A DNA stretch of 64,000 bases from Desulfosoma sp. (GTDB taxonomy: Bacteria > Desulfobacterota > Syntrophobacteria > Syntrophobacterales > DSM-9756): positions 64,001-128,000 of the forward strand of contig JBBFKW010000006.1 in assembly GCA_037481835.1 (NCBI GenBank). The letters run 5' to 3'. Positions 14,066-60,985 of this stretch are shown here, piece by piece. The stretch's first letter is position 1. The number at the start of each line of letters is the position of its first letter. Position numbers and translations under genes: made by a program. The notes beneath the pieces are model-generated. The model did no database searches. It saw only the letters and a program-made list of their open reading frames with translations, and was not told where the DNA came from.

Positions 14066-14428
14066 ATGCACCCTCCGAGAAAACCAAAGGACATCACAAC
14101 AAAGGCCCGCTCTCTGAGAAAAAACCAAACCGACGCCGAATCGCTCCTCTGGCTTCATCTCAAGGGCCGACACCTGGCGGGAAAGAAGTTTCGCCGCCAG
14201 TACCCCATCGGGCCTTTTGTGGCGGACTTCGTCTGCGCCGAAGCAAAACTCGTCGTGGAAATCGACGGCGGGCAGCATGCCGCCCAAAACGAGCGGCAAA
14301 AGGATGCTCGGCGCTCAGAATACATGGAAGCTTTGGGATATCGGGTCCTGAGGTTTTGGAACAATGAAGTCTTGAATGAAACGCACGCGGTGTTGGAAGT
14401 CATTCGGCGGCATCTGGTAAGGGATTGA
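14066..14428 (+). CDS. DUF559 / Vsr-like endonuclease domain protein, copy 1
   Basis: ARSLRKNQTDAESLLW, KFRRQYPIGPFVADF, VVEIDGGQH and GYRVLRFWNNEV. Confidence 0.92.
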   Translation: MHPPRKPKDITTKARSLRKNQTDAESLLWLHLKGRHLAGKKFRRQYPIGPFVADFVCAEAKLVVEIDGGQHAAQNERQKDARRSEYMEALGYRVLRFWNNEVLNETHAVLEVIRRHLVRD

Positions 14429-14848: not shown

Positions 14849-15211
14849 ATGCACCCTCCGAGAAAACCCAAGGACATCACAACAAAGGCCCGCTCTTTGA
14901 GAAAAAACCAAACCGACGCCGAATCGCTCCTCTGGCTTCATCTCAAGGGCCGACACCTGGCGGGAAAGAAGTTTCGCCGCCAGTACCCCATCGGGCCTTT
15001 TGTGGCGGACTTCGTCTGCGCCGAAGCAAAACTCGTCGTGGAAATCGACGGCGGGCAGCATGCCGCCCAAAACGAGCGGCAAAAGGATGCTCGGCGCTCA
15101 GAATACATGGAAGCTTTGGGATATCGGGTCCTGAGGTTTTGGAACAATGAAGTCTTGAATGAAACGCACGCGGTGTTGGAAGTCATTCGGCGGCATCTGG
15201 TGAGGGATTGA
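14849..15211 (+). CDS. DUF559 / Vsr-like endonuclease domain protein, copy 2
   Basis: Protein identical to copy 1; 783-bp offset; three synonymous differences seen. Confidence 0.92.
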   Translation: MHPPRKPKDITTKARSLRKNQTDAESLLWLHLKGRHLAGKKFRRQYPIGPFVADFVCAEAKLVVEIDGGQHAAQNERQKDARRSEYMEALGYRVLRFWNNEVLNETHAVLEVIRRHLVRD

Positions 15212-26044: not shown

Positions 26045-26426
26045 GGCCGTGCGCCCCTTCCCCGTCGGGGCATGCCAGCCCCCTTTCCCCGCCGGGGAAC
26101 GCCGGCCCCCTCTCCTCCTTCGGCCACTTCCAGCCCCCTGCGCCGATTGGGGGATACCAGCTCCCTCTTTGCCGAATTTTCGGCCCCTTATCCCCCTTCC
26201 GGCAATTCAGCCCCCTCCCCCCTCTGGGCGATCTCAGACTCCTTCTCCCGTTTGGGGGACGCCAGCCTCCCTCCCCCCTTCCGCCAATTCCAGTCCCCTT
26301 CCCCCCTTGGGGGATCCTAGACTCTCTCTGCCCCCTTTGGGGAATCTCAGACTCCCTCTCCCCCCTCTGGGGAATTTTAGGCTCCCTCTCCCCCCTCTGG
26401 GGGGAGAGGGCCGGGGTGAGGGGGGG
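26045..26426 (-). repeat. BoxC-like repeat with a ~30-bp array decaying leftwards
   Basis: Head at 26384-26426; units like CTCCCTCTCCCCCCTCTGGGGAATTTTAGG. Confidence 0.88.
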
Positions 26427-27999: not shown

Positions 28000-28304
28000 C
28001 CGCCCTGTGGGGGACTTCCGGCCCCACCTCCCCCCTCAGGGACATTTCAGGCTCCCTCTCCCCCTGTTCTGGAATCTTAGACGCCCTCTGCCCCTCTAGG
28101 GAATCTCAGACTCCCTCTCCCCTCGTTGGGGAATCCTAGACGCCCTCTGCCCCTCTGGGAAATCTCAGGCTCCCTCTCCCCCCTCTGGGGAATCCTAGAC
28201 GCCCTCTGCCCCTCTGGGAAATCTCAGGCTCCCTCTCCCCCCTCTGGGGAATTTTAGGCTCCCTCTCCCCCCTCTGGGGGGAGAGGGCCGGGGTGAGGGG
28301 GGGG
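28000..28304 (-). repeat. BoxC-like repeat with a ~30-bp array
   Basis: Head at 28261-28304; alternating GAATCCTAGACG and AAATCTCAGGCT units. Confidence 0.88.
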
Positions 28305-28596: not shown

Positions 28597-29320
28597 CCCC
28601 CCTCACCCTACCCTCTCCCCCCAAAGGGGGGAGAGGGTAATAAACACAGTTAGACGCAGAGCCGCTCTTAGCCCCGACCGTTGCCTCTCGCTTCCCTTTG
28701 GGGGGAGAGGGTAACAAGCACCTCTCTCCCCCCTTTGGGGGACGAGGGCAATAAACACCTCTCGCTTCCCTTTGGGGGAGAGGGGAATAAGCACATTTAA
28801 ATGTAGAGCGGATCTTAGCCCCTACCTTTCCCTCTCGCCCCAATGTGAGGAGAGGGGGATACACACAGTTAGAGGCAGAGCCGCTTTTAGCCCCGACCGT
28901 TGCCTCTCTCCCCAAGGGAGAAGAGAGGGGCAAAGTTCATTATACGTAGAGCCATTATGAGCCCCTCCCCTTCCGTCTCCCCAAAGGGGGAAAGGGAAAA
29001 AGGGTGAGGTGGTGGAGCACACTCGCGGGCGGAGAAGTCATCCTCCCTCTCCCCCTTCGGGGAATCTTGGGCTCCCTCCCCCCTTCGGGGAATTCCAGCG
29101 CCCCTCCACCCTTTGGCCGATTCCAGGCCCCCTCTCCCCTCCTTGGGAAATCTTAGACCACCTGTCCCCCCTCTGGGGATTTTTAGGCTCCCTCTCCCCC
29201 TCTTGGGAATTTTAGGCTCCCTCTGCCCCTCTGGGAAATCTTGGGCTCCCTCTCCCCCCCTTGGGGAATCTAAGACTCCCTCTCCCCCCTCTGGGGGGAG
29301 AGGGCCGGGGTGAGGGGGGG
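28597..29320. repeat. Inverted BoxC-like pair enclosing ~70-bp and ~30-bp arrays; duplicated at 50877-51535
   Basis: Forward head at 28597, reverse head at 29278; unique core CACACTCGCGGGCGGAGAAGTCATCCTCCCT shared with about 51290. Confidence 0.9.
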
Positions 29321-36113: not shown

Positions 36114-36292
36114 CCCATGGAGGAATGGTGCGCCTTGGGCCGAGCCGGCCCGGGGCGCGGGAGGTGCACGGCCCCCAGAAGGGGGCTTTCGAGTTTGGGA
36201 GGGGTGGGCATGGAGATTTTTTCGGAAGAAGGACAAAAGATTCCAATGGCTTAGGGACATGGCGGGGCTCGGAGGCCGATTGTCCCGGCGCC

Positions 36293-36309
36293 TTGGCACG
36301 GAGCTTGCT
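36293..36309 (+). promoter_or_regulatory. Sigma54 promoter of the flp/tad locus
   Basis: TTGGCACGGAGCTTGCT matches the TGGCAC-N5-TTGC consensus. Confidence 0.85.
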
Positions 36310-36378
36310 TTTGTTTCGTGCCAACGCGGTTTTGGTGCAGCAGTGCAACACCCAACAACAAATCGAAAGGAGTACGGC

Positions 36379-36555
36379 ATGGAAAGAATTAAAAGGTTTC
36401 TGAAGGACGAGGAAGGGGCCACGGCGGTGGAATATGGAATTATGGTTGCCGGCATTGCGGTGGCAATCATCGCCATCGTCTTTGCGCTCGGTGATAAGCT
36501 AAACGTACTCTTCACAAATGTGGACGCTAAAGTAGGTGACAGAGTGCCAAAATAG
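36379..36555 (+). CDS. flp: Flp family type IVb pilin 1
   Basis: FLKDEEG/ATAVEYG plus a hydrophobic helix; AAGGAG RBS. Confidence 0.93.
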   Translation: MERIKRFLKDEEGATAVEYGIMVAGIAVAIIAIVFALGDKLNVLFTNVDAKVGDRVPK

Positions 36556-36629
36556 TGGGCTTTCGGAAAACGTGTACGAGCAAATGAACAGAAATTAAGG
36601 CACCGGTCAGAAACCTATTGAATGGACCA

Positions 36630-36653
36630 TATGGGGCGGGACGCCGCCCCATA
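36630..36653 (+). other. Stable hairpin between the two pilin genes
   Basis: TATGGGGCGG-GACG-CCGCCCCATA; no U-tract. Confidence 0.6.
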
Positions 36654-36734
36654 CTCCAGTATGGGCTAAAGTTGAACCCTTAAGCGGCTCAATCGGCGAT
36701 CCGGTGCTGCGTCCTCAATGAATGAAAAGGCATC

Positions 36735-36932
36735 ATGTGTGACGTTATGCCAGCGATTTGTAAAAGACTCTCAAAGTTCCGGCACACCGAACAGGGAGCC
36801 ACCGCGCCTGAATATGCCATCATTGCCAGTAGCATTGCGGCGGCCGTTGCCCTCGCGGTGAAGGGACTGGGGACTAAAGTCAACGCTCTCTTTTCGAATT
36901 TTTACGACTTGCTCATTTCACTCATAAAATGA
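36735..36932 (+). CDS. Flp family type IVb pilin 2
   Basis: EQG/ATAPEYA plus a hydrophobic helix. Confidence 0.8.
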   Translation: MCDVMPAICKRLSKFRHTEQGATAPEYAIIASSIAAAVALAVKGLGTKVNALFSNFYDLLISLIK

Positions 36933-36971
36933 TTCTTGGGCCCGGGGTCTTGCGTGGCGGACCGACCTGAC

Positions 36972-37502
36972 ATGAATCACGACATAGCCTTGAAGACGAT
37001 TGCCGGACTCATCGCTTTAGCCGCCGCGGTGAGTGATCTCCGTACCCACCGGATCCCCAACCCGCTCATCTGCACGGGAACACTCCTGGGGCTTCTTTTT
37101 CATGCCCATGCCGACGCTCTCACCGGGCTCCTTTTTTCCCTCAAGGGGCTGGGCGTGGGGCTCGGCATTTGGCTCATCCCTTACGCCTTGGGGGCCATGG
37201 GGGCGGGGGACGTGAAGCTCATGGCGGCGGTGGGAGCCCTTTTGGGAGCCCGGGACGTGGTCCACGCCTCCCTGTACGGCGCCCTGTTCGGCGGTATGTA
37301 CGCCCTGGGCGTTTTTTTATGGCGAAAACCCTACCGGGAACGGTTCGGGCTCATGATCGCGACGTTTTTCCGAACCGGCCGGTTTCTCTATATCCCCGCC
37401 GCCGCAACGGACGAGAAGGTGCGGCTGTGCTACGCCGTCGCCCTTGCGGCCGGAACGTTCACCCACCTGGGCCTGGATGCCCTGGGATTTCGTCTCTTCT
37501 AA
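36972..37502 (+). CDS. cpaA: Prepilin peptidase, A24 family (CpaA/TadV)
   Basis: SDLRTHRIPN; MGAGDVKLMAAVG. Confidence 0.92.
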   Translation: MNHDIALKTIAGLIALAAAVSDLRTHRIPNPLICTGTLLGLLFHAHADALTGLLFSLKGLGVGLGIWLIPYALGAMGAGDVKLMAAVGALLGARDVVHASLYGALFGGMYALGVFLWRKPYRERFGLMIATFFRTGRFLYIPAAATDEKVRLCYAVALAAGTFTHLGLDALGFRLF

Positions 37503-37618
37503 AAAATTTTTGCTTGATTTTTCTCAGCATTATTTTGAAAAATTCCGATCAATTCCTGTGAGCCGGGTTTCACGGGTTTTCCGTTTTCTGCACCCCAAAC
37601 CGTGAAGGGGGAGTCCTC

Positions 37619-38509
37619 ATGGGTCGATACCGAGCTTTGATCCCTCTTGTTTTGGCGCTGGTGGTCGCCGTTTTGGGAAGTTACGCCATCTACCAGTGGC
37701 TGCGACAGCGGCCGCCCACCGTCGTGGAATCCACCCGGGCGGACACCCAGAAGGTGGCCGTGGCCGCCGCGGACCTCCCCTGGGGCACCAAGCTCACCCC
37801 GGAAATGATCAAGACGGTGCCTTACCTCAAGTCCAGCGTCCCCAAGGGTTCTTTCAGCGAACCCAAGGAGTTGGCGGGCCGCGTGCTCGTGCAGCCCGTC
37901 AAGGAAAGCGAACCCATCCTGGAATCGCGACTCGCCCCGACGAGCATCCAGACGGGCGGCATTTCGGCCGTGCTCAGCGCAGGCAAGCGGGCCATCGCCG
38001 TCCACGGGGACAAGGTCGTGGGCCTGGCCGGGCTCATCGCCCCCGGGAACCGCGTGGACGTCCTGGTCACGGTCAAGGACCCCGACCTGGAGATGGAAAC
38101 GACCAAGATCGTCCTGGAGAACGTGCCCGTGCTGGCCGCCGGGTCCAAGCTGGAAAAGGGCAAAGACGGGGAAGCCCATCCCGTGGACGTCTACACCCTG
38201 GAAGTGACCCCGGAAGAAGGGGAACGGCTGGCCCTGGCGTCCACCCAGGGAAAACTCCAGTTCGCCCTGCGCAACGTCACGGACCAGGACACGGTGCTCA
38301 CGGATGGGGCGACGCTTCCCGAGGTCCTGGCGGCTTTTCGGCCGGAAACCTCACAGCGCAGGCAGGCGGGCATGACGGACAAGGAAATCCTGGAAGCCCA
38401 GGCCATGCTGGAACGGCAGGCGGCGTCCATGGGCCACAGGCGCGGAAGCGGCCGCAGCATCGTCTTCATCCGCGGAACGGACGTGACCACCGTGGAGGCG
38501 GGCCGATGA
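37619..38509 (+). CDS. cpaB: Flp pilus assembly protein CpaB/RcpC
   Basis: N-terminal TM, SAF domain, GLIAPGNRVDV, LENVPVLA. Confidence 0.92.
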   Translation: MGRYRALIPLVLALVVAVLGSYAIYQWLRQRPPTVVESTRADTQKVAVAAADLPWGTKLTPEMIKTVPYLKSSVPKGSFSEPKELAGRVLVQPVKESEPILESRLAPTSIQTGGISAVLSAGKRAIAVHGDKVVGLAGLIAPGNRVDVLVTVKDPDLEMETTKIVLENVPVLAAGSKLEKGKDGEAHPVDVYTLEVTPEEGERLALASTQGKLQFALRNVTDQDTVLTDGATLPEVLAAFRPETSQRRQAGMTDKEILEAQAMLERQAASMGHRRGSGRSIVFIRGTDVTTVEAGR

Positions 38510-38547
38510 ACGGACGGAGCACAAGGCAGACAAGGGAGGGGTTAAGC

Positions 38548-39153
38548 ATGAGAGCAGCGGCGCTGGCGGTGGTGGTGGCGGCGGTCCTCGCAGGGTGTGC
38601 GCCCGTTCCGAGGCCCGCCGGGCATGAGTTGAGCTACCAGAGGAAGATGCAATCCGCCCGGCATTGGGAACAGCTGGCCCGGGAGGTGGCCGTGGAGGTT
38701 CAAAAGACGCTGCCGGTCCAGGGGGTGAGCGGTATCCAGCAGATCACCGTCTCCGCCGACGATCGCTCCGACTTCGGCATCGCCTTCCGCCAATTTCTCA
38801 TGACGCGGCTTCGGGACGCGGGCTACTGGGTGACCGACGATGCGGCCAACCCCACGGTCCTGCGCTGGCGCACCCAGAAGGTGGTCCACGAAGGGGACCG
38901 GCCCTGCGCCATGAACCTCCCCTACCTCGTGGGGAGCCTCCTCACCCTGGGCATGGACTACGGCGGATCGCTCCCCCGCTCGGAAATCATCCTCACCGTG
39001 GAACTCAAACGGTCCTCGGCGGTTTTGTGGAACCGATCGGCCGTCTTCTACGTGAACTGCGAAGACATGAACCATTACGGGTCCCAAGGGCCTGAGGTGG
39101 CCGGGGCGCCCGCGCAGGCGCTCGGCCGCACTTACGGCGTCGTGGGCCGCTGA
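38548..39153 (+). CDS. Hypothetical lipoprotein
   Basis: GGAGG RBS; lipobox VLAGC; QRKMQSARHW motif. Confidence 0.75.
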   Translation: MRAAALAVVVAAVLAGCAPVPRPAGHELSYQRKMQSARHWEQLAREVAVEVQKTLPVQGVSGIQQITVSADDRSDFGIAFRQFLMTRLRDAGYWVTDDAANPTVLRWRTQKVVHEGDRPCAMNLPYLVGSLLTLGMDYGGSLPRSEIILTVELKRSSAVLWNRSAVFYVNCEDMNHYGSQGPEVAGAPAQALGRTYGVVGR

Positions 39154-39169
39154 TCCTTGGAGGAGGGAC

Positions 39170-39742
39170 ATGGAGATGAGGCGCTTGTCTGTGCTGTGTG
39201 TCGTGCTGGGGATCGCGGTCGCCGCGGCGGGCTGCGCATGTCAGCGTCCCTGCGGGACGTCGGTCGGGGCTTTCGGGCCGGTGGAGGCCGGCGGCAACGT
39301 GGTTTCGGCCGCCTACCGGATCGCCGACGCCATGGCGGGAAACCTTCGCGACCCGGTCGGGCCCGACCGGACGATTCTCGTGGCCACCTTCGTGGACGTG
39401 AACGATCTCACCAAATCCTCCCCCTTCGGCCGCATCTTCGGGGAACACGTGGCGTCCCGGCTGGCCCAGAAGGGCTACCGCGTCATGGAACTCAAGCTTC
39501 GCCAGAACTCCATCTTCATGGAAAACACCAAGGGCGAGTTCCTCCTCAGCCGGGATGTGAAGGACGTGAGCACCACGCATAACGCGTGGGCCGTCGTCGT
39601 GGGGACCTACGCGGCGAGTTCCGACCGGGCGTACGTGTCGGCCCGCATGGTGCGCGCCGCCGACGGCGTGGTCATCGGCGCCTCCGACGGCGCGGTGCTC
39701 ATGAGCCCGAGGGCCCTTGCCGCCATGATTCCGTGGGAGTGA
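39170..39742 (+). CDS. FlgO-family outer membrane lipoprotein
   Basis: AAAGC lipobox; ILVATFVDVNDL, SPFGR, GEFLLSRD, VVVGTY. Confidence 0.75.
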   Translation: MEMRRLSVLCVVLGIAVAAAGCACQRPCGTSVGAFGPVEAGGNVVSAAYRIADAMAGNLRDPVGPDRTILVATFVDVNDLTKSSPFGRIFGEHVASRLAQKGYRVMELKLRQNSIFMENTKGEFLLSRDVKDVSTTHNAWAVVVGTYAASSDRAYVSARMVRAADGVVIGASDGAVLMSPRALAAMIPWE

Positions 39743-39794
39743 CGGCACGAGGCGGTGGTGCGGCCGCGTTTGCTCAGGGAAAGGACGAGAGGCC

Positions 39795-41315
39795 ATGGGA
39801 GAGCGCATGGAACGAAGAAGCGGCGGGGGGAACATGGGCTTGGGAAAGCTATGGCGCGGTCTCAGGGCCGCTTTGCATAAGGGCGGGATGGGTGCCGTCC
39901 CCATGGGGAGGCGCCGGGGATGGGTCGCCGTGTTGATGTGCGTCCTCGTGGTCGCGGGGGCTTCAGGGGCGGCGGGGGCGGCGGGCCCCGACCCCAACCC
40001 GGCCCCGTCGGGTCGGATCCGGCTCACCGCGGGCACTTCGGCCACCATCCCCATCCCCGAAAAGACCCTCATCGGCCGGATCGCCGTGGCGGCTCCGGAA
40101 GTCGCCGACATCCCCCATTACCCCGAGGGGACGTTTCCGCCCGAACGGCACGTGTACATCACCGGCAAAGCCCCGGGGCTCACCACCTTGACCCTGTGGG
40201 ACGACAAGGACCGGATCTTCAAGGTCTATGAAATCGAAGTCGTCCCCGACGTGTCCCGGCTCCAGGCGGTGCTCAAGCAGCTCATGCCCGACGAAAAGGG
40301 GGTGAAGGTGACGGCCGTCCATGACGCCGTGGTGCTCACGGGAACCGTGTCGGGGCCGGCCCGCATGAGCCAGATCCTGGAACTGGCCGCATCCTACGCG
40401 CCGGGCAACAAGGTCATCAACCTCACCCAGGTCTCCGGCGTCCACCAGGTCATGCTGGAGGTGCGGGTGGCCGAAATGTCCACGAGCCTCATGCGGCGGC
40501 TGGGGTTCAATTTTGAATACCTGCGGGGCACGGACTTCGTCATCAGCCGTATCGGGAGCCTCATTAATGTGGATGACCAGAGGATCACCTTTTCGGATTC
40601 GGTGAGCGCCCTCTTCCGGTTCAACAAGGGCAACGCCACCTGGACGGGCTTCATCGACGCTTTGAAGGAAGAAGGGCTGGTGACGATCCTCGCCGAACCC
40701 AACCTCATCGCCCTGAGCGGCCAGACGGCGGATTTTCTCGCCGGCGGGGAATACCCCGTCCCGGTGCCCGACGATGAAGGGGACATCACCATCGAGTATA
40801 AAAAATACGGCGTGAGCCTGGGCTTCACCCCCACGGTGCTCCAGGACGATCTCATCAGCATGCGGGTGTCCCCGGAAGTTTCCGAACTGGATTTCGGCAA
40901 CGCCTTGTTGCTGGGAGGCTACGTGGTGCCGGCCCTGACCACGAGGCGGGCGACCACCGTGGTGGAGCTGCGAAGCGGGGAAAGTTTCGCCATTGCAGGG
41001 CTCATCAAGCAGAACGTGCGGGAAGCCGTCTCCCGGTTCCCCCTGTTGGGGGACATCCCCATCCTGGGGGCGCTCTTTCGAAGCAGCAGCTTCCAGAAGC
41101 AGGAAAGCGAACTCGTCATCATCGTCACGCCCCACTTGGTGAAGCCCATGAAGAGCCTGGCGCGCCAGCCCCTTCCCGTGGACCGGTTCACGGAGCCGAG
41201 CATGACGGAGTTTTTCCTCTTTGGGTTGCTCCAGGGGCAGAAGGGGCCGGAATCGGCGGCCGTGGGGCGGCCTCGGGGGTTGTTTGACGGGCCCTTCGGG
41301 CATGTGGTGCCGTGA
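39795..41315 (+). CDS. cpaC: Tad secretin CpaC/RcpA (start may be later)
   Basis: QVMLEVRVAE, LAEPNLIALSGQTADFLAGGEYPVP, PLLGDIPILGALFRS. Confidence 0.93.
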   Translation: MGERMERRSGGGNMGLGKLWRGLRAALHKGGMGAVPMGRRRGWVAVLMCVLVVAGASGAAGAAGPDPNPAPSGRIRLTAGTSATIPIPEKTLIGRIAVAAPEVADIPHYPEGTFPPERHVYITGKAPGLTTLTLWDDKDRIFKVYEIEVVPDVSRLQAVLKQLMPDEKGVKVTAVHDAVVLTGTVSGPARMSQILELAASYAPGNKVINLTQVSGVHQVMLEVRVAEMSTSLMRRLGFNFEYLRGTDFVISRIGSLINVDDQRITFSDSVSALFRFNKGNATWTGFIDALKEEGLVTILAEPNLIALSGQTADFLAGGEYPVPVPDDEGDITIEYKKYGVSLGFTPTVLQDDLISMRVSPEVSELDFGNALLLGGYVVPALTTRRATTVVELRSGESFAIAGLIKQNVREAVSRFPLLGDIPILGALFRSSSFQKQESELVIIVTPHLVKPMKSLARQPLPVDRFTEPSMTEFFLFGLLQGQKGPESAAVGRPRGLFDGPFGHVVP

Positions 41316-41366
41316 GGGGGGGAGGCTTTCTTGACATGTTGGCTGATTGCCCCCTTGGCCCCTTAT

Positions 41367-41870
41367 CCCCCCCCCTCACCCCGGCCCTCTCCCCCAGAGG
41401 GGGAGAGGGAGGATTTAGTTTTCCCCAGAGGGGGAGAGGGAGGATTTAGTTTTCCCCGGAGGGGGAGAGGGGGGATTTAGTTTTCCCCGGAGGGGGAGAG
41501 GGGGGATTTAGTTTTCCCCAGAGGGGGAGAGGGGGGAGTGAATTTCCTTCGGACGGGGAGAGGGGGGAGGAACTCCCACGGAGGGGGCAGATGGGGGATG
41601 AACTCCTACGGAGGGGAAGAGGGGGTTAGGATTTGCCCGGAGGAGGGCGGCTTGACTGGGAGAGGCAGCGGTTGAATTTACCCGCGGGGCAGGAGGGACG
41701 CTCAGCCCCCCCTCACCCCGGCCCTCTCCCCCACAGGGGGAGAGGGGGCATTTAATTTTCCCCAGAGGGGGAGAGGGGGGATTTAGTTTTCCCCGGAGGG
41801 GATAAGGAGGATTTAGTTTTGCCCGGAGGGGGAGAGGGAGGGTTTAGTTTTCCCCGGAGGGGAGGGGCCC
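41367..41870 (+). repeat. Two BoxC-like heads, each followed by a decaying 31-bp array
   Basis: Unit CCCC(A/G)GAGGGGGAGAGGG(A/G)GGATTTAGTTTT; heads at about 41367 and 41706. Confidence 0.92.
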
Positions 41871-41880
41871 TGGGATAAAG

Positions 41881-41955
41881 CCCCATCACGGGCAGCCCGT
41901 GACAACGAAGGATGAAAGTTTCATGGTTGCGGTGTGTTACCGAGCCTTTCACATA
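41881..41955 (+). repeat. Third copy of the ~76-bp double-hairpin element
   Basis: CCCCATCACGGGCAGCCCGTGACAACGAAGGATGAAAG...CTTTCACATA. Confidence 0.85.
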
Positions 41956-42004
41956 AAGGTTAAAGAAGCGGCAGGGACGGACCGATGGATAGGGTGAGGA
42001 GAAG

Positions 42005-42295
42005 ATGATGGGACGGATGGCGGCTGTGGTGGTCGTGGTGGCGGTGATCCTGGGGGCGTGGGCGGGGTCGAGCCCGGCCGAACCCGGGGACAATCAGGCG
42101 GTGGGCCAACAGTTCGGGGATGCGGTGGCCGTGGCCAAGGCGGTGCAAATCGTGCGGCCGGAACAGCCCCGCAAGGAGACGGGCCCTCCGGGCATCGCAG
42201 GCAAGAACGCCGACGCCGCCATGGAAAAGTACTACGAGAGTTTCCGCAAAACCGCTCCGGCGCCGTCCACGGTGAACATTTCCATCGGTCGATGA
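42005..42295 (+). CDS. Small exported Tad-associated protein
   Basis: Signal peptide; FGDAV...QIVRP; lies between the secretin and cpaE. Confidence 0.7.
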   Translation: MMGRMAAVVVVVAVILGAWAGSSPAEPGDNQAVGQQFGDAVAVAKAVQIVRPEQPRKETGPPGIAGKNADAAMEKYYESFRKTAPAPSTVNISIGR

Positions 42296-42337
42296 GCGCC
42301 CCCTGACGGGCCGCGCCCGACAACATCGAGGATCCCC

Positions 42338-43486
42338 ATGGAAGCTGAGGTGATTTCCGTTCAGATCCAGGTGCAGAATCGAGAAGCCCGCCGGGTTTTG
42401 GAAGAGACGGTGGCGGCCACGGAAGGGTTCAAGCTCTACCGGGAAGGCCAGGCGGTCGCCACCGACGTGCTCATCATGGAAATCGGTCCAGAGCCCGATC
42501 GCGACTTCGATTTCATCCATACCCTCCTGGAGGCGGGAACGGTGGGCGCCGTCTTCCTCACCTCCGCCGAAACCGACCCGGCGCTCCTCATGCGGGCCAT
42601 CCGCGCAGGAGCCCGAGAGTTTTTCCCGCAGCCCATCGACCCTCAGGAGGTGCGCCAGTCGCTCCTGCGCTTCAAGGCCCAGCGCCAAAAGCTCATGAAC
42701 CACGGCCAGCGTCGCAAAGGCGTCATCCTGCACGTCATGGGCGCCAAGGGCGGTGTGGGGACGACCACCCTGGCCGTGAACCTGGCCACCATCCTCGCCC
42801 GCGGCGCCGAACCCAACGCGGTCGCGCTCATGGACATGAATTTCCTCTTCGGGGAGGCGGCCGTCTTCCTGGATGCGGAAACCACCTTTCACTGGGGGAA
42901 AATCACCAAGAACATCTCCCGGTTGGACGCCACGCTGCTCATGAGCGTCCTCACCCAGCATCCGTCCGGCGTGGCCCTGCTTCCGCCGCCGGCCCAGTTG
43001 GACGGCTACAGCGGCGTGACCCGTGACGTCCTCCGCCGGCTCCTCACCCTCATGCGCACCATGTTCGACTACATCGTCGTGGACGGCGGCCAGCTCGTCA
43101 ACGACGTCAACATGCAGATCCTGGAAATGGCCGACGAGATCCTCGTGGTGGCCATCCTGAGCCTGCCGTGCCTGGCCAATGTGCGGCGGCTCCTGAAACT
43201 TTTCCACGACACGGGGATCGAAGAAAGTCGCGTGAAAGTCGTCGTCAACCGATTCCTGAAAAACGCCGATATCAGTCTCGAGGACGCGGAAAAAAGTATC
43301 GGGAAACGGGTTTTCGCAACCGTGCCCAACGACTTCCGAACGACCACGACGGCCATCAACCGGGGAAAGCCCCTCATTGAACTCGCCCCCAAAAAACCCG
43401 TCACGGAAGCCGTGGTGAACCTCGCCGCGTCCCTGGCCCAGGTGGAACCGCCCAAGCGGCGGGGTTTTTTCGGATTTCGGTTTTGA
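42338..43486 (+). CDS. cpaE: CpaE/TadZ (receiver-like plus MinD-like ATPase)
   Basis: AIRAGAREF; GAKGGVGTTTLAVNLA. Confidence 0.92.
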   Translation: MEAEVISVQIQVQNREARRVLEETVAATEGFKLYREGQAVATDVLIMEIGPEPDRDFDFIHTLLEAGTVGAVFLTSAETDPALLMRAIRAGAREFFPQPIDPQEVRQSLLRFKAQRQKLMNHGQRRKGVILHVMGAKGGVGTTTLAVNLATILARGAEPNAVALMDMNFLFGEAAVFLDAETTFHWGKITKNISRLDATLLMSVLTQHPSGVALLPPPAQLDGYSGVTRDVLRRLLTLMRTMFDYIVVDGGQLVNDVNMQILEMADEILVVAILSLPCLANVRRLLKLFHDTGIEESRVKVVVNRFLKNADISLEDAEKSIGKRVFATVPNDFRTTTTAINRGKPLIELAPKKPVTEAVVNLAASLAQVEPPKRRGFFGFRF

Positions 43487-43516
43487 ATCGAAATGTTTTG
43501 AGAAAGGACACAACCC

Positions 43517-44860
<1,344 letters not shown>

Positions 44861-44891
44861 GGACAGGTTCTGTGCTTAAGGAATCGCCTTT

Positions 44892-45869
44892 ATGAGCACC
44901 TATGTGTACATCGGCGCGGCGGTCTTCGTGCTCGTCGTCGTCGTCATCGAACTGATCGCCTACGCCCTGGCCCTTTACAAGAACCCGGAACGGGGCCGGG
45001 TGCGCCGGCGCCTGAAGGTGGTGGCGATCGACGACGCGGATTCCACGGCTCCGGTGACGAGCTTGCTGAAAACCAGGGTGTTGAGCGAAATTCCGTGGCT
45101 CAACCGCATCCTCACCCGCATCCCGGGGCTGCAGAAACTGGACGCCCTCCTGGAGCAGGCGGACATCCGGCAACCCTTGGGGTTTTTCGTGCTCTTGACC
45201 TTCCTGTGCGCGGCCCTGGGCTTCCTCGTGGGGCTGCTCTTTTTCAAGGGGCGCCTTGTTCCGTGGCTTTTGGGCGGTTTGGCGCTGGTCGGGCCGTACC
45301 TTTACATCCTCATCAAGCGGGAACGGCGCATGGCCGCCTTCGAACGGCAGTTTCCCGACGCTTTGGACCTCATGGCCCGGGCCCTCAAGGCCGGCCATTC
45401 CCTGAACACGTCGTTCAAGCTCGTCGCCGACGAGTTCGACGAGCCCATCGGGCGGGAATTTGAAAAGGTCTTCGACGAGGTGAACTTCGGCGTGGGTTTG
45501 GCCGAAGCTTTGAATCGGCTGCGGGAGCGCATCATCAACCCCGATTTGGACTTTTTCGTGGTGGCCGTGGTGTTACAGCGGGAAACGGGCGGCAATCTCG
45601 CCGAAATCATCGAAAACATCGCCCGGCTCATCCGGGAGCGGTTCAAGCTCCGGGGGCAGATCAAGGCCCTGGCCGCCGAAGGGAAACTGTCGGCTCTGGT
45701 CCTGGTGCTTTTGCCCTTTTTCATGTTCCTGATCCTGCGCATCGTGAACCCCAAGTACGTGGGGCTCCTTTTTTCCGACCCCATTGGGCGGCCCATGGTC
45801 GCCGGCGCCTTGGTTCTCATGGTCCTGGGCGTCATTGTCATGAAGCGCATGATCGATATCCGCGTGTAG
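44892..45869 (+). CDS. tadB: TadB inner-membrane platform protein
   Basis: QFPDALDLMARALKAGHS; QRETGGNLAEI. Confidence 0.93.
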   Translation: MSTYVYIGAAVFVLVVVVIELIAYALALYKNPERGRVRRRLKVVAIDDADSTAPVTSLLKTRVLSEIPWLNRILTRIPGLQKLDALLEQADIRQPLGFFVLLTFLCAALGFLVGLLFFKGRLVPWLLGGLALVGPYLYILIKRERRMAAFERQFPDALDLMARALKAGHSLNTSFKLVADEFDEPIGREFEKVFDEVNFGVGLAEALNRLRERIINPDLDFFVVAVVLQRETGGNLAEIIENIARLIRERFKLRGQIKALAAEGKLSALVLVLLPFFMFLILRIVNPKYVGLLFSDPIGRPMVAGALVLMVLGVIVMKRMIDIRV

Positions 45870-45882
45870 CGAGGCCGGAGGC

Positions 45883-46863
45883 ATGCCCACGCCGAACGTT
45901 GAGGTTCTCCCATTGGTCGCCGCCGGCGCCGTCTTTCTTTTCGTCATCCTCGCCTACCTGGGTCTTTCCGCCCTGGCGGGCGCCCGGGCCGAACGCCGCC
46001 GTTTCATCGAAAAGGTGAAGGCGGGGTCGGGCTACGAGGACGAAGGGGATGAGGGCGAAGCGGAAATGCCTTCTCTCATGCGGGAACAGAAGGGCCTGGG
46101 GGCGGCGGTGGCCCGGCTCGGCGATGTGGTGGCGCCGTCGGCCCGCATGGACACCCCCACCCGGAGAAAGTTTCTCCAGGCCGGGTTTCGCAGCGAAACC
46201 GCCGTGGCCGTTTACTGGGGCATGAGGGTCCTGCTCGCGGTGGCCTTGTGCCTGGGGTTTCTCGCCCTTCGCGTGGCGGTCTTCAAGCTCATGCCTGCCG
46301 CATGGACGACGGTGATCGCCGTGCTCGCAGCGCTGGTCGGGTTCTATCTTCCGACGTTGTGGCTGGCGCTGCGCATCGCCTGGCGCCGGGAAAGGATCCA
46401 CCGGGGCCTTCCCGATGCGTTGGATCTCTTGGTGGTGTGCGTCGAAGCGGGCTTGGGCCTCGATGCCGCCCTGGCGCGGGTCGGGGACGAACTGGCCCTG
46501 ACCAACAAGGTCTTGAGCGACGAATTCAAGCTCTACGGGCTGGAACTGCGGGCGGGGAAACCCCGGCGGGAAGCGTTGAGGAACCTCAGTCTCCGAACGG
46601 ATCTTCCCGACATGAAGAGCCTCGTCACGCTCCTTATCCAGACGGACAAATTCGGGACGAGCGTGGCCCAAACTTTGAGGGTCTATGCGGATTCCATCCG
46701 CACCACGAGGCGGCAGAAGGCCGAGGAGATGGCGGCGAAGATCCCGGTGAAGCTCGTCTTCCCGCTGATACTTTTCATTCTGCCCGCTTTGTTCGTGGTC
46801 TTGGCGGGCCCGGCGGCTATCAGCATCTTCCGGGCCCTCATGCACGTTGCCGGCGGCCGCTGA
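45883..46863 (+). CDS. tadC: TadC inner-membrane platform protein
   Basis: LPDALDLLVVCVEAGLGLDAA; KLVFPLILFILP. Confidence 0.93.
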   Translation: MPTPNVEVLPLVAAGAVFLFVILAYLGLSALAGARAERRRFIEKVKAGSGYEDEGDEGEAEMPSLMREQKGLGAAVARLGDVVAPSARMDTPTRRKFLQAGFRSETAVAVYWGMRVLLAVALCLGFLALRVAVFKLMPAAWTTVIAVLAALVGFYLPTLWLALRIAWRRERIHRGLPDALDLLVVCVEAGLGLDAALARVGDELALTNKVLSDEFKLYGLELRAGKPRREALRNLSLRTDLPDMKSLVTLLIQTDKFGTSVAQTLRVYADSIRTTRRQKAEEMAAKIPVKLVFPLILFILPALFVVLAGPAAISIFRALMHVAGGR

Positions 46864-46919
46864 CGGAGGGCCCCGGCTCTGCAGGAGCCGGCATGCGGCC
46901 ACCGCCGCCGCCCCGCCGG

Positions 46920-48800: not shown

Positions 48801-48808
48801 TCAAAGAC

Positions 48809-49297: not shown

Positions 49298-49311
49298 GGG
49301 GGGAGGTTCCC

Positions 49312-50876: not shown

Positions 50877-52446
50877 CCCCCCCCTCACCCCGCCCTCTCC
50901 CCCCAAAGGGGGGAGAGGGGGATGAGTTCAAATATCCGTAGAGTGGTTCTTAGCCCCTACCGTTCCTCTCTGCCAAAGGGGTGAGAGGGGGATACACACA
51001 GTTCGACGCAGAGCTGCTCCTAGCCCCGACCGTTGCCTCTCGCCTCCTTTGGGGGGAGAGGGGAATAAACACATTTAAACGTAGAGCGGATCTTAGCCCC
51101 TACCTTTCCCTCTCGCCCCAATGTGGGGAAAGGGGGATTGTTAGACGCAGAGCCGCTCTTCATCCTGACCGTTGCCTCTCTCCCCAAGGGAGGAGAGAGG
51201 GGTAAAGTTCATTATACGTAGAGCCATTATGAGCCCCTCCCCTTCCGTCTCCCCAAAGGGGGAAAGGGAAAAGGGTGAGGCGGTGAAGCACACTCGCGGG
51301 CGGAGAAGTCATCCTCCCTTTCCGCCTTCGGGGAATTCCAGCGCCCCTCCTCCCTTTGGGCCATTCCAGACTCTCTCTCCCCCTCTAAAGAATTTAAGGC
51401 TCCTTCTCGCCCCCTTGGGGAATTTCAGACGCCCTCTCCCCTCCTTGGGAAATCTTAGGCTCCCTCTCCCCCCTCTGGAGAATTTCAGGCTCCCTCTCCC
51501 CCCTCTGGGGGGAGAGGGCCGGGGTGAGGGGGGGCCTCATTCCTCCGCCTGCTTCCCGGGGGGTTACGGCCTGTCGGCGGAACAGTACACCGTCAAGCCT
51601 GCCAAGGCGATTCCAGGCTCCCTCTCCCCGTTGGGGAATCCTAGACCCCCTCGGCCCCTCTGCGAAATCTTAGACACCTTCTGCCCCTCTGGGAAATCTT
51701 AGGCTCCCTCTCCCCCCTTTGGGGGGAGAGGGCCGGGGTGAGGGGGGCCTTCCTCCTTTACGATTCCTTCTCAACCCTGAACCCATGCCCCCCGCCGGAG
51801 GACCCCGCGCGCCATGATCCCCCCGAGCCGCCTCTTCGCTGCCGGACGCCGAACCGTTTCCCGGGATCTTCCCGACTTGGGCCGGGACCTCCTCGTCGGC
51901 TGCCTGAACACCGTCGTCGGCTTTGTGGGGAGCCGTCACATCGCCTTCTTCAGCAGCAGGGAAAACTTCCGGTGAAAGCCCCCTCTTTTGCTGGAAGAGC
52001 GAGGAGCGGCGGCACGGTGTGGGCGCAAGGAGGGGGGATGGCCCCCCTCACCCTGCCCTCTCCCCCCTTTGGGGGGAGAGGGGAAAAGGGCGGGTATGGG
52101 CACGGCCCCGCGGGGGGAGGGGTGCGTACCCTGGCAGGAGGTGAGCCTCCGGGTGAGAAGGGGTGTGCCCCCGGCTGAGGAGGTGAGCGTCCGGGTGAGG
52201 AGGGGTGCGCCCCCGGAGAAGGATGGGCCGGGGGGTTAGATGTCGAAGTAGAGCATGAACTCGTCGGGGTGAGGGTGCAAGGAGGGGGGATGGCCCCCCT
52301 CACCCTGCCCTCTCCCCCCTTTGGGGGGAGAGGGGAAAAATGGCGAGCATGCACACCGCCCCGCGGGGGGAGAGGGGGAAAGGGCGGGCATGGGCACGGC
52401 CCCGCGGGCAGGAGGGGTGCGCCCCCGGAAAGGGATGGGCCGGGGG
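50877..52446. repeat. Composite repeat region: five BoxC-like heads, arrays, a permuted copy of 28110-29391 and a glnA 3' duplicate
   Basis: Direct sequence matches described in the findings. Confidence 0.9.
51814..51960 (+). pseudogene. Internally deleted GtrA-family remnant, copy 2
   Basis: Close match to 28371-28520. Confidence 0.65.
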
Positions 52447-60526: not shown

Positions 60527-60985
60527 GCCCCCCTCACCCTGCCCTCTCCCCCCGAAGGGGGGAGAGGGAAAAATCTGCAACTGCCTGCAGTCCCCCGAAG
60601 GGGGGAGAGGGAAAAATCTGCAACTGCCTGCGGTCCCCCGAAGGGGGATCGGGTAAATTCGGCAGCTGCCCGCGGTCCCCCGAAGGGGGAGAGGGAAAAA
60701 TCGGCGGCTGCCGATAATCCCCCCAAAGGGGAGAGCGGGAAATATCTGCAGCTGCCGATAGTCCCCCAATAGGGGGGGAAAGACAAGTGGGCCGCTGCCG
60801 GCGGCCTCCCGAAGGGAAAACGGGGTGGCAGTCAGCAGTTCCCCTGGAGGGGGAAAGGCAGCGGCGGTCAGCGGTCCCCCCAAAGGAAAACGCCGCGGCT
60901 GTCAGAAGTTCCCCAAAGGGAAAACGACGCCGCGTCCCCTAAAGGGAAAATATGGCAGGTGCCGGAAGTCCCCCAAAAGGAAACA
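60527..60985 (+). repeat. BoxC-like head with a 43-bp array of about 11 units, decaying rightwards
   Basis: Unit CCCCCGAAGGGGGGAGAGGGAAAAATCTGCAACTGCCTGC(A/G)GT. Confidence 0.92.

What the first reader, a model, noticed from the sequence alone, without database searches (positions are those of the whole stretch)
41367..41870. Locus-specific tandem arrays grow from the repeat hairpin and decay with polarity
Seen: at most loci the hairpin side of a head is followed by units made of the loop and purine arm plus local flanking DNA. Periods differ by locus: 31 bp here, 43 bp at 60527, ~40 at 15214, ~33-36 at 22512 and 46920, ~30 at 26384 and 28261, ~70 at 28597. At 41367, 60527, 26384 and 28261 the head-proximal units are near identical and distal ones degrade. 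Inference: new units are added at the head by repeated nick-and-copy events, leaving a chronological record like leader-end growth in CRISPR but with self-derived spacers.
Basis: partly seen in the sequence, partly recalled or inferred. Interest (0 to 1): 0.8.

Follow-up and report, generated by a model that had tools for sequence, protein, structure and literature searches.

The report
One-sided minisatellites beside BoxC triplex hairpins
Short tandem repeat arrays sprout from one side only of a known unstable DNA hairpin element (BoxC/PIT/triplex motif), which here forms the ends of a small DUF559 nuclease gene cassette; they look like slippage products, not a CRISPR-like record.

Summary
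The arrays are real. TRF finds 31-bp units at 41390-41625 and 41735-41862. Each array starts at a "head": box CCTCACCC, 1-5 nt, then a CCCTCTCCCC / GGGGAGAGGG hairpin. Genome-wide, 35 of 63 heads carry an array on the hairpin side and 8 of 63 on the box side.

Polarity holds at the four named loci. Of 20 arrays, 15 show falling neighbour identity. Collapsed to 14 unit families, the count is 9 falling and 5 rising, p=0.42.

Evidence against strict head-end addition:
- Nine of 20 arrays are dominated by 2-3-unit repeats.
- Paralogous arrays differ by unit indels near the head and far from it.
- The unit's left edge varies from 0 to about 11 nt.

A roughly 99% identical strain lacks two of the first three units at 60577-60661.

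The head is the published BoxC/PIT/"TM" intrastrand triplex motif, linked to local instability in E. coli (PMC4666352). The best reading is stall-and-slip minisatellites seeded at that motif, with turnover raised near the head but not confined to it. DUF559-driven nick-and-copy is untested and less likely. The DUF559-to-motif link itself looks new and robust.

The parts
41367..41409 (+). Head 1. C-rich box with CCTCACCC (41367-41382), GG linker, pyrimidine arm 41385-41395, 3-nt loop, purine arm 41399-41409. Matches the BoxC/PIT/TM type with a CCGG linker on the G-rich strand.
   Evidence: Sequence. DNA fold gives an 11-bp stem, -13.4 kcal/mol. Pattern hit at C6:105374-105409. Same architecture as TM type B in Table 1 of PMC4666352.
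41390..41625 (+). Array 1. About 7-8 units of 31 bp. Each unit holds a 4-5 nt C-run, the loop, the purine arm and a 12-13 nt T-rich spacer. The first four units are near identical and later ones decayed.
   Evidence: TRF period 31, 7.7 copies, 87%. Stacked units. Neighbour identities 0.97 0.97 0.97 0.74 0.81 0.87. Logan contigs of X1 (record 1: 41428-41904, one other letter) and a contig of X2 that covers 41487 with the same other letter.
41626..41705 (+). Degenerate tail of array 1 and spacer before head 2.
   Evidence: Sequence. Units fall below 0.6 identity to the consensus.
41706..41746 (+). Head 2, a tandem copy of head 1 lying 337 bp downstream.
   Evidence: Pattern hit at C6:105711-105746. 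41369-41526 aligns to 41706-41862 at 91.8% identity.
41735..41862 (+). Array 2. About 4 units of 31 bp, with a weaker gradient (0.90 0.84 0.84). Units 2 and 4 are the most alike pair.
   Evidence: TRF period 31, 4.2 copies, 86%..
39795..41315 (+). Upstream gene: CpaC/RcpA-type secretin of a Tad pilus operon. The repeats lie in the gap between this gene and the next operon genes.
   Evidence: Pfam Secretin 3.7e-45 and T2SS-T3SS_pil_N.
42338..43486 (+). Downstream gene: ParA/MinD-like ATPase (TadZ/CpaE-like), followed by the T2SSE ATPase at 43517-44860.
   Evidence: Pfam AAA_31, CbiA, ParA; T2SSE 2.8e-64.
14066..14428 (+). DUF559 (Vsr-like nuclease fold) gene, copy 1. An inverted head lies at 13973-14009 and a direct head at 14434-14469. 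In both, the box faces the gene and the hairpin faces outward, and decayed arrays run outward on both sides.
   Evidence: Pfam DUF559 4.4e-40. Heads. Sequence.
14849..15211 (+). DUF559 gene, copy 2. The protein is identical to copy 1, with 3 synonymous differences seen by eye in the ORFs. Flanked by heads at 14756-14792 (-) and 15218-15253 (+). The right-hand array is 15236-15424.
60532..60816 (+). Head (60532-60568) with an array of 42-43-bp units. Units 1 and 2 differ at one position. A related strain lacks 60577-60661.
   Evidence: TRF.. Contigs of X2 (depth 69.5, 1560 nt) and X3 (depth 20.7, 4200 nt) join 60576 to 60662.
26211..26421 (-). Array of 30-bp units with its head at 26384-26421, downstream of trpA.
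28028..28298 (-). Array of 30-bp units with a 59-bp two-unit higher-order repeat. Head at 28261-28298.
   Evidence: TRF period 59, 4.1 copies, 87%. Units 2 and 4 are identical.
29043..29315 (-). Array of 29-bp units with head at 29278-29315. It is a paralog of 51314-51529, with homologous flanks on both sides.
51314..51529 (-). Paralogous array with head at 51492-51529. It is two units shorter than 29043-29315.

Best explanation
The "head" is a copy of the published BoxC / PIT / TM element. This is a homopyrimidine-homopurine hairpin with a third-strand segment (the box) that can fold into an intrastrand triplex. In this genome it forms the two inverted ends of a small DUF559 gene cassette, and it also occurs as many solo or tandemly duplicated ends.

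The arrays are minisatellites seeded at the outer, hairpin side of that element. The proposed route (inferred) has three steps:
1. A replication or repair polymerase stalls in the folded hairpin or triplex. The nascent end, which pairs with the loop-proximal C-run, re-anneals to a C-run 20-70 nt back in the flank.
2. Re-copying duplicates the segment C-run + loop + purine arm + flank. This fixes a period set by the locus.
3. Once two units exist, further slippage or unequal exchange adds or removes 1-3 units. This happens most often next to the intact head, which is the strongest structure and sits beside the most alike units, but it also happens inside and at the far end.

Units that stop taking part decay by point mutation, which produces a frequent but not universal gradient. 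Whole head+array blocks are in turn duplicated in tandem and dispersed.

Shown here: the anatomy, the one-sidedness, the variable unit edge, the multi-unit steps, the indels between paralogs and between strains, and the identity with BoxC/PIT/TM.
Inferred: the stall-and-slip steps and their direction.
For: One-sided arrays: 35 of 63 heads on the hairpin side against 8 of 63 on the box side.

Sequence identity with a known unstable motif. The head has the same architecture as E. coli TM types A and B in Table 1 of PMC4666352. That paper reports higher sequence variability within 1-500 nt of TM loci than at control sites across 56 E. coli strains. It proposes stalling or slippage, and states that the mechanism remains unclear (sections 19-20). 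[quoted passage not shown]

No fixed cut site. The unit's left edge varies from 0 to about 11 nt into the pyrimidine arm, and the part kept is always the loop-proximal part.

Multi-unit steps:
- Lag-2 identity exceeds lag-1 in 9 of 20 arrays.
- TRF finds higher-order periods of 59, 85, 88, 93 and 109 bp.
- The strain difference is 85 nt, i.e. 2 units.
- The paralog difference on C6 is 60 nt, i.e. 2 units.

Non-polar events:
- One whole unit differs at the distal end between arrays 29277 and 51491, bounded by a repeated 12-nt stretch.
- Indels between paralogs lie from the head junction out to about 245 nt.

Hierarchy of tandem duplication: 38 of 63 heads have a same-orientation head within 600 bp.

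Raised head-proximal turnover: the first neighbour pair is the most alike in 10 of 20 arrays against 4.43 expected, p=0.005. The polymorphism points the same way.

The head hairpin is far more stable than the unit mini-hairpins: -13.4 to -15.2 against -4.7 kcal/mol.
Against: A symmetric hairpin alone does not explain why arrays avoid the box side. That asymmetry needs either the third strand (triplex) or an enzyme acting on the outer end of the element, and I could not tell these apart.

Arrays flank both ends of the intact, apparently selected DUF559 cassettes.

This genome combines an unusual number of heads with an unusual number of arrays. The strict pattern gives 50 matches here against 0-3 in each of 40 relatives. 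Only about 7 of 86 DUF559 loci from other genomes have hairpin-bearing arrays. This could point to an activity specific to this genome.

Purine arms are somewhat better kept than spacers, 80% against 72%, in 16 of 20 arrays. That measure is biased by how units were anchored.

In vivo triplex formation was not detected in E. coli by the authors of PMC4666352.

No experiment or read-level data here shows stalling or slippage.
Confidence: 0.55

Rival explanations
1. The DUF559 nuclease nicks at the head, and repair synthesis copies the head-proximal segment. New units are therefore added at the head, and the array is a time-ordered record.
For: Arrays lie only on the outer side of the element ends, and on both sides of the two intact DUF559 cassettes.

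The two DUF559 copies encode identical proteins, with only synonymous differences seen by eye.

The DUF559-hairpin link is conserved across phyla. A hairpin lies in 67 of 77 downstream flanks and 65 of 78 upstream flanks, against 14 of 378 control windows. The protein therefore probably recognises these ends.

Head-junction changes occur between strains and between paralogs.

Heads and arrays are both unusually many in this genome.
Against: No constant unit boundary.

The most alike units are often not at the head. Pair (1,2) is the best pair in only 4 of 20 arrays. Units 2 and 4 at 28260 are identical. The youngest-looking units of C6:165632-166010 are distal.

There are distal one-unit indels between paralogs.

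Steps of 2-3 units are common.

Family-level polarity is not significant: 9 falling against 5 rising.

No nuclease activity, nick site or dependence was tested.
Confidence: 0.17
2. There is no ongoing polar process. Head+array blocks were copied as blocks by segmental or tandem duplication or by mobility. The apparent gradients are largely inherited from a few ancestral arrays, plus a boundary effect: a sharp head edge against a fading far edge.
For: Six of the 20 arrays analysed form one unit family and supply most of the signal. At family level the split is 9 negative and 5 positive, p=0.42.

There is paralogy of kilobase segments: 28166-28637 matches 51614-52082 at 91.6%, and 28758-29235 matches 51036-51509 at 85.5%.

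38 of 63 heads have a same-orientation neighbour within 600 bp.
Against: Paralogous arrays have changed in unit number since they were duplicated.

A near-identical strain differs by two head-proximal units.

Gradients also occur in unrelated unit families: 60531, 22514, C4:122244 and C8:76244.
Confidence: 0.15
3. The arrays are selected functional elements. They could be rows of binding sites for a protein that recognises the purine arm or mini-hairpin, or structured RNA or attenuators inside operons.
For: Purine arms are kept better than spacers: 80.3% against 72.4%, higher in 16 of 20 arrays.

The arrays sit between genes of the trp and Tad operons.
Against: The arm-versus-spacer measure is biased, because units were anchored and selected on the arm.

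There are no Rfam matches in the window.

No terminator-like or promoter-like sites lie in 41367-41870. One terminator-like site was found in 41200-42100, at 41263-41275 inside the secretin gene, against 1.4 expected.

Orientation relative to flanking genes is mixed.

PIT elements showed no promoter or terminator activity, according to PMC4666352.

Strict heads were found in none of the three same-genus genomes searched.
Confidence: 0.08
4. Assembly artefact: the arrays are mis-assembled short-read repeats.
For: The genome is a draft assembly with runs of N. Logan contigs break inside the near-identical units, at 41428 and 60578.
Against: The decayed parts of the arrays are covered by contigs: X1 record 1 spans 41428-41904 with one other letter, and an X2 contig from a different study covers 41487 with the same letter. 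Contigs also run through the array at 60547 in X2 and X3. About 35 arrays share the same anatomy.
Confidence: 0.03

Closest known systems
BoxC / PIT element / G/C-rich intrastrand triplex motif (TM, TMECO), Holder et al. 2015, PMC4666352. Read here: abstract, Table 1, sections 19-20, and passages of the introduction and sections 15, 17, 18. Supplements not seen.
   Same: The three-part sequence is the same: a CCCTCTCCC-type arm, a short loop, a GGGAGAGGG-type arm, a 2-4 nt linker (CCGG, or TTA/CA) and a GGGTGAGGG-type third strand. It is multi-copy and intergenic. It occurs singly or as inverted pairs. It is associated with local sequence instability between strains.
   Different: The paper's main text does not mention tandem duplication next to the motif: "duplication" occurs 0 times, and "tandem" is used only in general repeat terminology, for inverted TM pairs and in reference titles. 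It also does not mention DUF559, ycjD or any endonuclease (0 occurrences each). Here 35 of 63 copies carry a one-sided minisatellite, and the motif forms the inverted ends of DUF559 cassettes.
Bacterial intergenic minisatellites / VNTRs such as mycobacterial MIRUs (recalled; only a search listing was seen)
   Same: Head-to-tail units of tens of bp, sited in gaps between operon genes, with copy number differing between close strains.
   Different: Here every array is anchored at one end to a specific structured element, and all arrays have one orientation relative to it. MIRU arrays are not described as anchored in that way (recalled).
Polar mutation of human minisatellites, with gains biased to one end under the control of a flanking element (recalled from the work of Jeffreys and colleagues; no paper read here)
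   Same: Array change is biased to one end and governed by something in the flank.
   Different: That is a meiotic recombination or gene-conversion process in eukaryotes. Here the process is bacterial, the bias is only partial, and the flanking driver is a hairpin/triplex element.
CRISPR arrays
   Same: Short partly palindromic repeats at regular spacing, and the idea of growth at one end.
   Different: The "spacers" are copies of one another, not foreign DNA. Repeats decay along the array. No cas genes are adjacent. The genome's true CRISPR-like arrays, with about 36-nt repeats and 72-bp periods, lie on contigs C12 and C20.
REP/BIME clusters with RAYT transposases, and IS200/IS605 ends (recalled)
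   Same: A small nuclease gene is flanked by inverted hairpin-bearing repeats that also occur as many gene-less copies and clusters.
   Different: The associated protein is DUF559 (Vsr-like PD-(D/E)XK fold), not an HUH tyrosine transposase. The clusters here are direct tandem units that include flank DNA.

Membership tests
BoxC / PIT / TM intrastrand triplex motif | Homopyrimidine arm, short loop, homopurine arm forming a 9-11 bp hairpin | tested here: met
   11-12 bp stems with a 3-nt loop, -13.4 and -15.2 kcal/mol. 63 copies match box + hairpin.
BoxC / PIT / TM intrastrand triplex motif | Third-strand segment resembling the arm (GGGTGAGGG-type on the G-rich strand), joined by a 2-4 nt linker | tested here: met
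   Sequence at 41367-41409 and 60532-60568, compared with Table 1 of PMC4666352. The CCGG-linker and CA-linker forms parallel types B and A.
BoxC / PIT / TM intrastrand triplex motif | The isolated strand actually folds into a triplex | not testable with these tools
   Needs CD, NMR or a melting experiment. ViennaRNA models hairpins only.
BoxC / PIT / TM intrastrand triplex motif | Raised local variability between close strains | tested here: inconclusive
   One clear case: an 85-nt difference at 60577-60661 in contigs of X2 and X3, which come from one study. No control loci were compared.
CRISPR array | Constant repeats separated by unique spacers that are not derived from each other | tested here: not met
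   Whole units, spacers included, are 60-97% identical to their neighbours.
CRISPR array | Adjacent cas genes | tested here: not met
   Pfam scan of 194 ORFs of the window found no Cas family.
CRISPR array | New units added only at one (leader) end | tested here: not met
   Distal and internal unit indels and multi-unit duplications.
Minisatellite / VNTR | Head-to-tail units of 10-100 bp, with copy number differing between close relatives or paralogs | tested here: met
   TRF. Strain difference. Paralog differences.
REP/RAYT system | An HUH Y1 transposase (RAYT) gene flanked by the repeats | tested here: not met
   The gene flanked by inverted heads is DUF559. No transposase family was hit in the window. 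The rest of the genome was not scanned for RAYT.
MITE-like non-autonomous element of a DUF559 cassette | Both terminal inverted repeats joined without the gene | tested here: inconclusive
   Seen in relatives G029 and G004 at 4 loci. It would also fit the type A + type B inverted pairs reported for E. coli. Target-site duplications and mobility were not shown.

The most novel reading that the evidence does not exclude
DUF559 is the missing enzyme partner of the BoxC/PIT/triplex elements found across bacteria. On this reading, a Vsr-like nuclease cassette is bounded by triplex-hairpin inverted ends, and the nuclease nicks at the outer foot of the hairpin. Repeated nick-and-repair events there generate the one-sided, head-anchored minisatellites. 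Array homogeneity near the head would then report recent nuclease activity, and BoxC-associated genome instability in E. coli and other bacteria would be enzyme-driven rather than purely structural.
Probability: 0.17. Interest if true: 0.8.

Novelty: new variant of a known kind. Interest (0 to 1): 0.45.

Why it matters
[quoted passage not shown] The authors of PMC4666352 state that the mechanism remains unclear.

This genome offers an unusually rich natural experiment. It has about 35 arrays, all on the same side of the motif, with differences between paralogs and between strains. These show what the instability looks like at base level: duplication of the hairpin top plus the flank.

Two testable leads follow:
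1. The third-strand box, or an enzyme acting on the element end, makes the instability one-sided.
2. The motif is the terminal repeat of DUF559 cassettes in many phyla. That gives a candidate function to a widespread domain of unknown function, and a candidate origin for the paired type A + type B BoxC elements of E. coli.

If the arrays are only slippage products, the finding is a well-documented but ordinary minisatellite phenomenon.

Tried and rejected
- **No close strain from two searches.** The DNA search of 40 relatives gave no match in the three same-genus genomes for 40700-42500. The metagenome-contig scan with the secretin protein gave at best 55% identity. The only strain comparison is therefore.
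- **Joints I did not use.** I judged 47182 to 52447, 51072 to 51708 and 51733 to 51036 to be paralogous segments, repeats or other organisms. The uneven X2 depth along 41-61 kb was not interpreted.
- **Rfam** gave no family at gathering score in the window.
- **Terminator/promoter scan** of 41200-42100 found nothing inside the arrays. The terminator-array idea was dropped.
- **, TRF-bounded polarity test.** Four of 20 rows were set aside because my segmentation started upstream of the head. Their rho values were positive (0.50, 0.95, 0.38, 1.00), driven by the mis-phased first "units". They were re-analysed anchored at the head.
  - In one search, arrays with fewer than 4 units (8 of 28) were left out of the counts.
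  - The 90-bp repeats on C22, whose unit contains the whole head, were skipped.
  - For C6:165990 only the head-near TRF rows were used. The full array, seen, shows no decline.
- **, ungapped leftward extension** is thrown off by 1-nt phase shifts. I used it only qualitatively, together with the stacks.
- **, arm versus spacer conservation** is biased by anchoring and by G-richness, so I gave it little weight.
- **Indel placement inside arrays is ambiguous.** MAFFT and local alignment place the proximal indel of 29277 versus 51491 differently. Only the distal one is fixed by unit matching.
- **Many pairs are overlaps of one sequence with itself** (identity 1.00) and were ignored.
- **Direction of the 85-nt strain difference** (gain here or loss there) could not be polarised, because there is no outgroup.
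Full report
**What is at the coordinates**

The stretch 41367-41870 lies in the gap between a CpaC-type secretin gene (39795-41315) and the next Tad pilus genes. It holds two "heads", at 41367-41409 and 41706-41746. Each head is a C-rich box containing CCTCACCC, a GG linker, an 11-nt pyrimidine arm, a 3-nt loop and an 11-nt purine arm. As single-stranded DNA the head folds into an 11-bp hairpin of -13.4 kcal/mol.

Each head is followed by 31-bp units. TRF reports 41390-41625 (7.7 copies, 87%), with a core at 41392-41568 (5.7 copies, 92%, score 270), and 41735-41862 (4.2 copies, 86%). No Rfam family matches anywhere in the window.

**Genome-wide anatomy**

The window is C6:64001-128000 of a 3.63-Mb draft genome of 38 contigs. 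A pattern of box + hairpin, allowing one mismatch per part, finds 63 heads, 33 of them on contig C6. The 9-mer GGGAGAGGG occurs 250 times on both strands, against about 65 expected from base composition.

TRF over the whole genome, read without reference to heads, gives 39 tandem loci whose unit contains the arm. When the units are stacked, nearly every array begins directly at a head and runs 3' of the purine arm.

Counting from the heads, 35 of 63 have an array of at least 2.5 copies on the hairpin side. Eight of 63 have one on the box side, and those are mostly the array of a neighbouring head or repeats whose unit contains the head itself. The one-sidedness is therefore real and strong. 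Heads and arrays occur in both orientations along the same contig, so the side is set by the head and not by the direction of replication.

**What the units are made of**

In most arrays the unit also keeps the loop-proximal 2-11 nt of the pyrimidine arm, so each unit is a weak mini-hairpin. A 41411-41441 unit folds at -4.7 kcal/mol. In a few arrays no pyrimidine part is kept; examples are C6:166049, C18:101837, and 21185 and 21446 in the window. The left edge of the repeated segment thus varies between loci, and no common cut position can be mapped.

"Locus-specific" is also only partly right. The arrays at 26383, 28260, 29277 and 51491 share one ~30-bp unit family, as does 51705 by eye. 41373 and 41710 hold a related 31-bp unit. 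There is kilobase-scale paralogy: 28166-28637 matches 51614-52082 at 91.6%, and 28758-29235 matches 51036-51509 at 85.5%. In addition, 38 of 63 heads have a same-orientation head within 600 bp. This means head+array blocks are themselves tandemly duplicated.

**Polarity**

I tested polarity in two ways.

*First test.* I used array bounds set by TRF and units cut by alignment to the array consensus. Of 16 head-anchored arrays with at least 4 units, 15 had a negative rank correlation between unit index and neighbour identity. The mean rho was -0.50, and none of 2000 within-array shuffles reached it. Mean identity was 0.84 for the first pair, 0.75 for middle pairs and 0.73 for the last pair. Four further rows were set aside because my segmentation began upstream of the head. 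Their rho values were positive for that reason.

*Second test.* I anchored every array at the purine arm of its head and chained units by similarity to the previous unit. This gave 28 arrays with at least 3 units and 20 with at least 4. Of those 20:
- 15 had negative and 5 positive rho, with a mean of -0.28;
- the first pair was the most alike pair in 10, against 4.43 expected if its position were random (Poisson-binomial p=0.005).

These arrays are not independent, however. Grouped by spacer similarity they fall into 14 families, and six arrays form one family. At family level the split is 9 negative and 5 positive (two-sided p=0.42).

The fourth, 60527, is independent and clearly polar. The full array at C6:165632-166010 shows no decline, and its most alike units lie far from the head. 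Polarity is therefore real at the named loci and a genome-wide tendency, but it is not a rule.

**How the arrays change**

Several results speak against ordered single-unit addition at the head.
- Lag-2 identity exceeds lag-1 identity in 9 of 20 arrays.
- TRF finds higher-order periods of two or three units at many loci: 59, 85, 88, 93 and 109 bp.
- The most alike pair is units (1,2) in only 4 of 20 arrays. At 28260, units 2 and 4 are identical while units 1 and 2 are 90% alike.

Paralogs serve as internal replicates. The arrays at 29277 and 51491 have homologous flanks on both sides and differ by two one-unit indels. One is fixed by unit matching at the distal end (unit 8 of 9) and is bounded by a repeated 12-nt stretch. 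The other lies in the proximal half, and its exact place depends on the aligner.

Three tandem paralogs on C6 (heads at 165990, 166416 and 166902, minus strand) share the head. At least two of them also share the distal flank. They carry about 0.5, 1.5 and more than 6 copies of a two-unit (60-nt) repeat, and the 60-nt difference between two of them sits exactly at the head junction. Other indels between paralogs lie from 40 to about 245 nt from the head.

**Strain comparison**

Five public runs hold all or part of the stretch, three of them half its words or more. I laid Logan contigs of four runs on 41000-60999.

Contigs of X2 (depth 69.5, 1560 nt) and X3 (depth 20.7, 4200 nt) join 60576 to 60662, with at least 255 nt on the shorter side. 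These two runs come from the same study. They carry 4-6 other letters in each of the 338-766 nt flanking pieces. That strain therefore lacks 85 nt, which is two of the first three units of the array at 60547. Whether this genome gained the units or the other strain lost them cannot be said.

X1 is the probable source of the assembly. Its contigs stop at 60578 and start at 41428, which is what repeated 31-mers would cause. The copy number of the identical head-proximal units therefore remains unverified. X1 record 1 covers 41428-41904 with one other letter, and an X2 contig from a different study covers 41487 with the same letter. The decayed part of array 1 and array 2 are thus seen in X1, and at least the 41487 region is seen in an independent study.

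**What the head is**

A full-text search for the two arm motifs led to Holder et al. 2015 (PMC4666352). Table 1 of that paper lists 23 "TMECO" elements of E. coli K-12. They have the same three parts as the head here read on its G-rich strand: a pyrimidine arm, a loop, a purine arm, a CCGG (type B) or TTA (type A) linker, and a GGGTGAGGG-type third strand.

According to the paper, the element was earlier called BoxC and then PIT. [quoted passage not shown] TM loci are more variable than control sites among 56 E. coli strains, especially within 1-500 nt. The authors discuss stalling, slippage and error-prone repair, and state that the mechanism remains unclear.

Its main text does not contain "duplication", "DUF559", "ycjD" or "endonuclease". 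"Tandem" appears only in general repeat terminology, for inverted TM pairs and in reference titles. I did not see the supplements, which may show flank changes in more detail. Two further searches found no paper that links these elements to DUF559 or describes anchored polar arrays: DUF559 + repeat returned 18 papers, of which I saw 15 listings, and I also searched on triplex/BoxC/PIT terms from 2015 onward.

**The DUF559 context**

The genome has two DUF559 genes, both in the window, at 14066-14428 and 14849-15211. The two proteins are identical, and the ORFs differ at three synonymous sites by eye. Each gene is flanked by inverted heads with the box toward the gene and the hairpin outward, and decayed arrays run outward on both sides. 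A third, gene-less copy at about 15425-15480 retains the last ~30 nt of the ORF in front of its head.

The head type with a four-letter linker (CCGG, or CTGG beside the gene itself) matches the upstream end of the cassette. The type one nucleotide shorter matches the downstream end.

In 80 DUF559 loci from many phyla, a perfect hairpin of at least 7 bp with homopyrimidine and homopurine arms lies within about 220 nt in 67 of 77 downstream flanks and 65 of 78 upstream flanks. The same is true of only 14 of 378 control windows placed 450-1500 nt away. A box-like copy of the arm is found on the gene side in 42 of these flanks and on the outer side in 11.

In relatives G029 and G004, four loci show the two ends joined without the gene. 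E. coli ycjD, which is annotated as DUF559, lies about 170 nt from TM no. 9 of the paper's table, with a duplicated fragment of the gene's 3' end in between.

The strict head pattern occurs 50 times in this genome and 0-3 times in each of 40 relatives. None was found in the three same-genus genomes searched. Hairpin-bearing arrays next to DUF559 occur in about 7 of 86 loci from other genomes.

**Most likely mechanism**

My best reading, at about 0.55, is that the arrays are minisatellites seeded by the known instability of the BoxC/PIT/TM element. A polymerase stalls in the folded hairpin or triplex. The nascent end slips back to a C-run in the flank, and re-copying duplicates the C-run, loop, purine arm and flank. 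This sets a period that depends on the locus. Further slippage or unequal exchange of 1-3 units follows, most often beside the intact head, while inactive units decay.

This reading fits the following observations:
- the variable unit edge;
- the retention of the loop-proximal arm only;
- the multi-unit steps;
- the distal indels;
- the hierarchy of duplications;
- the partial polarity.

The stall-and-slip steps are inferred. Nothing here shows them directly. The weak point is the strict one-sidedness, which needs either the third strand or an enzyme acting at the outer end.

It is favoured by the conserved cassette architecture and by the unusual load of heads and arrays in this genome. It is disfavoured by the lack of a fixed boundary and by the non-polar events.

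I rate the remaining rivals as follows:
- inherited gradients without an ongoing polar process: about 0.15;
- selected function: about 0.08;
- assembly artefact: about 0.03.

**Verdict**

The CRISPR-like chronological reading is not supported. The head belongs to a known family, and anchored one-sided minisatellites are a new variant of its known instability. The link between DUF559 cassettes and BoxC/PIT/TM ends appears unreported in the searched literature and is the most valuable lead.

Noticed in passing
window 13970-15480; loci L055-L134, L043-L049: DUF559 genes are bounded by inverted BoxC/PIT/TM-type hairpins, with the box toward the gene and the hairpin outward. This holds here and across many phyla: 67 of 77 downstream flanks and 65 of 78 upstream flanks, against 14 of 378 control windows. 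The arm sequence co-varies with lineage (CCCTCTCCC, CCCCTCCC, CCTCCCCC, CCCCCC types). I found no paper that reports this link.
   Followed up: partly
L215 (E. coli K-12 NC_000913 1351039-1351760): ycjD (DUF559) is followed by a degenerate hairpin that overlaps its stop codon, then a duplicated fragment of its own 3' end, and about 170 nt downstream by TM no. 9 of the table in PMC4666352. That paper also notes that the E. coli inverted TM pairs always combine one type A with one type B, which would fit the two ends of a DUF559 cassette.
   Followed up: partly
window 41875-41955, 23139-23292; also C14:82899-83188, C15, C1, C5, C17: A separate ~77-nt repeat family lies just upstream of gene starts, in tandem copies at some loci. 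Its first ~40 nt is 88-97% identical to many copies in same-family genomes G005 and G008. No Rfam match at gathering score.
   Followed up: no
L016, L018, L020 (G029), L013 (G004): Gene-less double-head elements of about 100 bp are nested between inverted repeats of the flanking sequence, 15-18 nt long. Two loci have similar flanks and one differs. They are either inserted into existing palindromes or form part of a larger composite repeat.
   Followed up: no
window 17721-26039 and 35950-50580: Heads and arrays fill the gaps between genes of the tryptophan operon (between trpD and trpC, between trpC and trpF, and after trpA) and of the Tad pilus operon. More than half of the genome's heads lie on one contig, C6.
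   Followed up: partly
G000 C12:27455-33502 and C20:414-10596: Two long CRISPR-like arrays with ~36-nt repeats and ~72-bp periods, unrelated in sequence to the head arrays.
   Followed up: no
G000 C12:14695, C12:67572, C13:102193, C14:47298, C8:171001, C10:84156: Another palindromic repeat family, with arms built on GGGGT/ACCCC runs, also occurs in short tandem arrays of 47-65 bp. One copy sits immediately upstream of a head at C10:26852.
   Followed up: no
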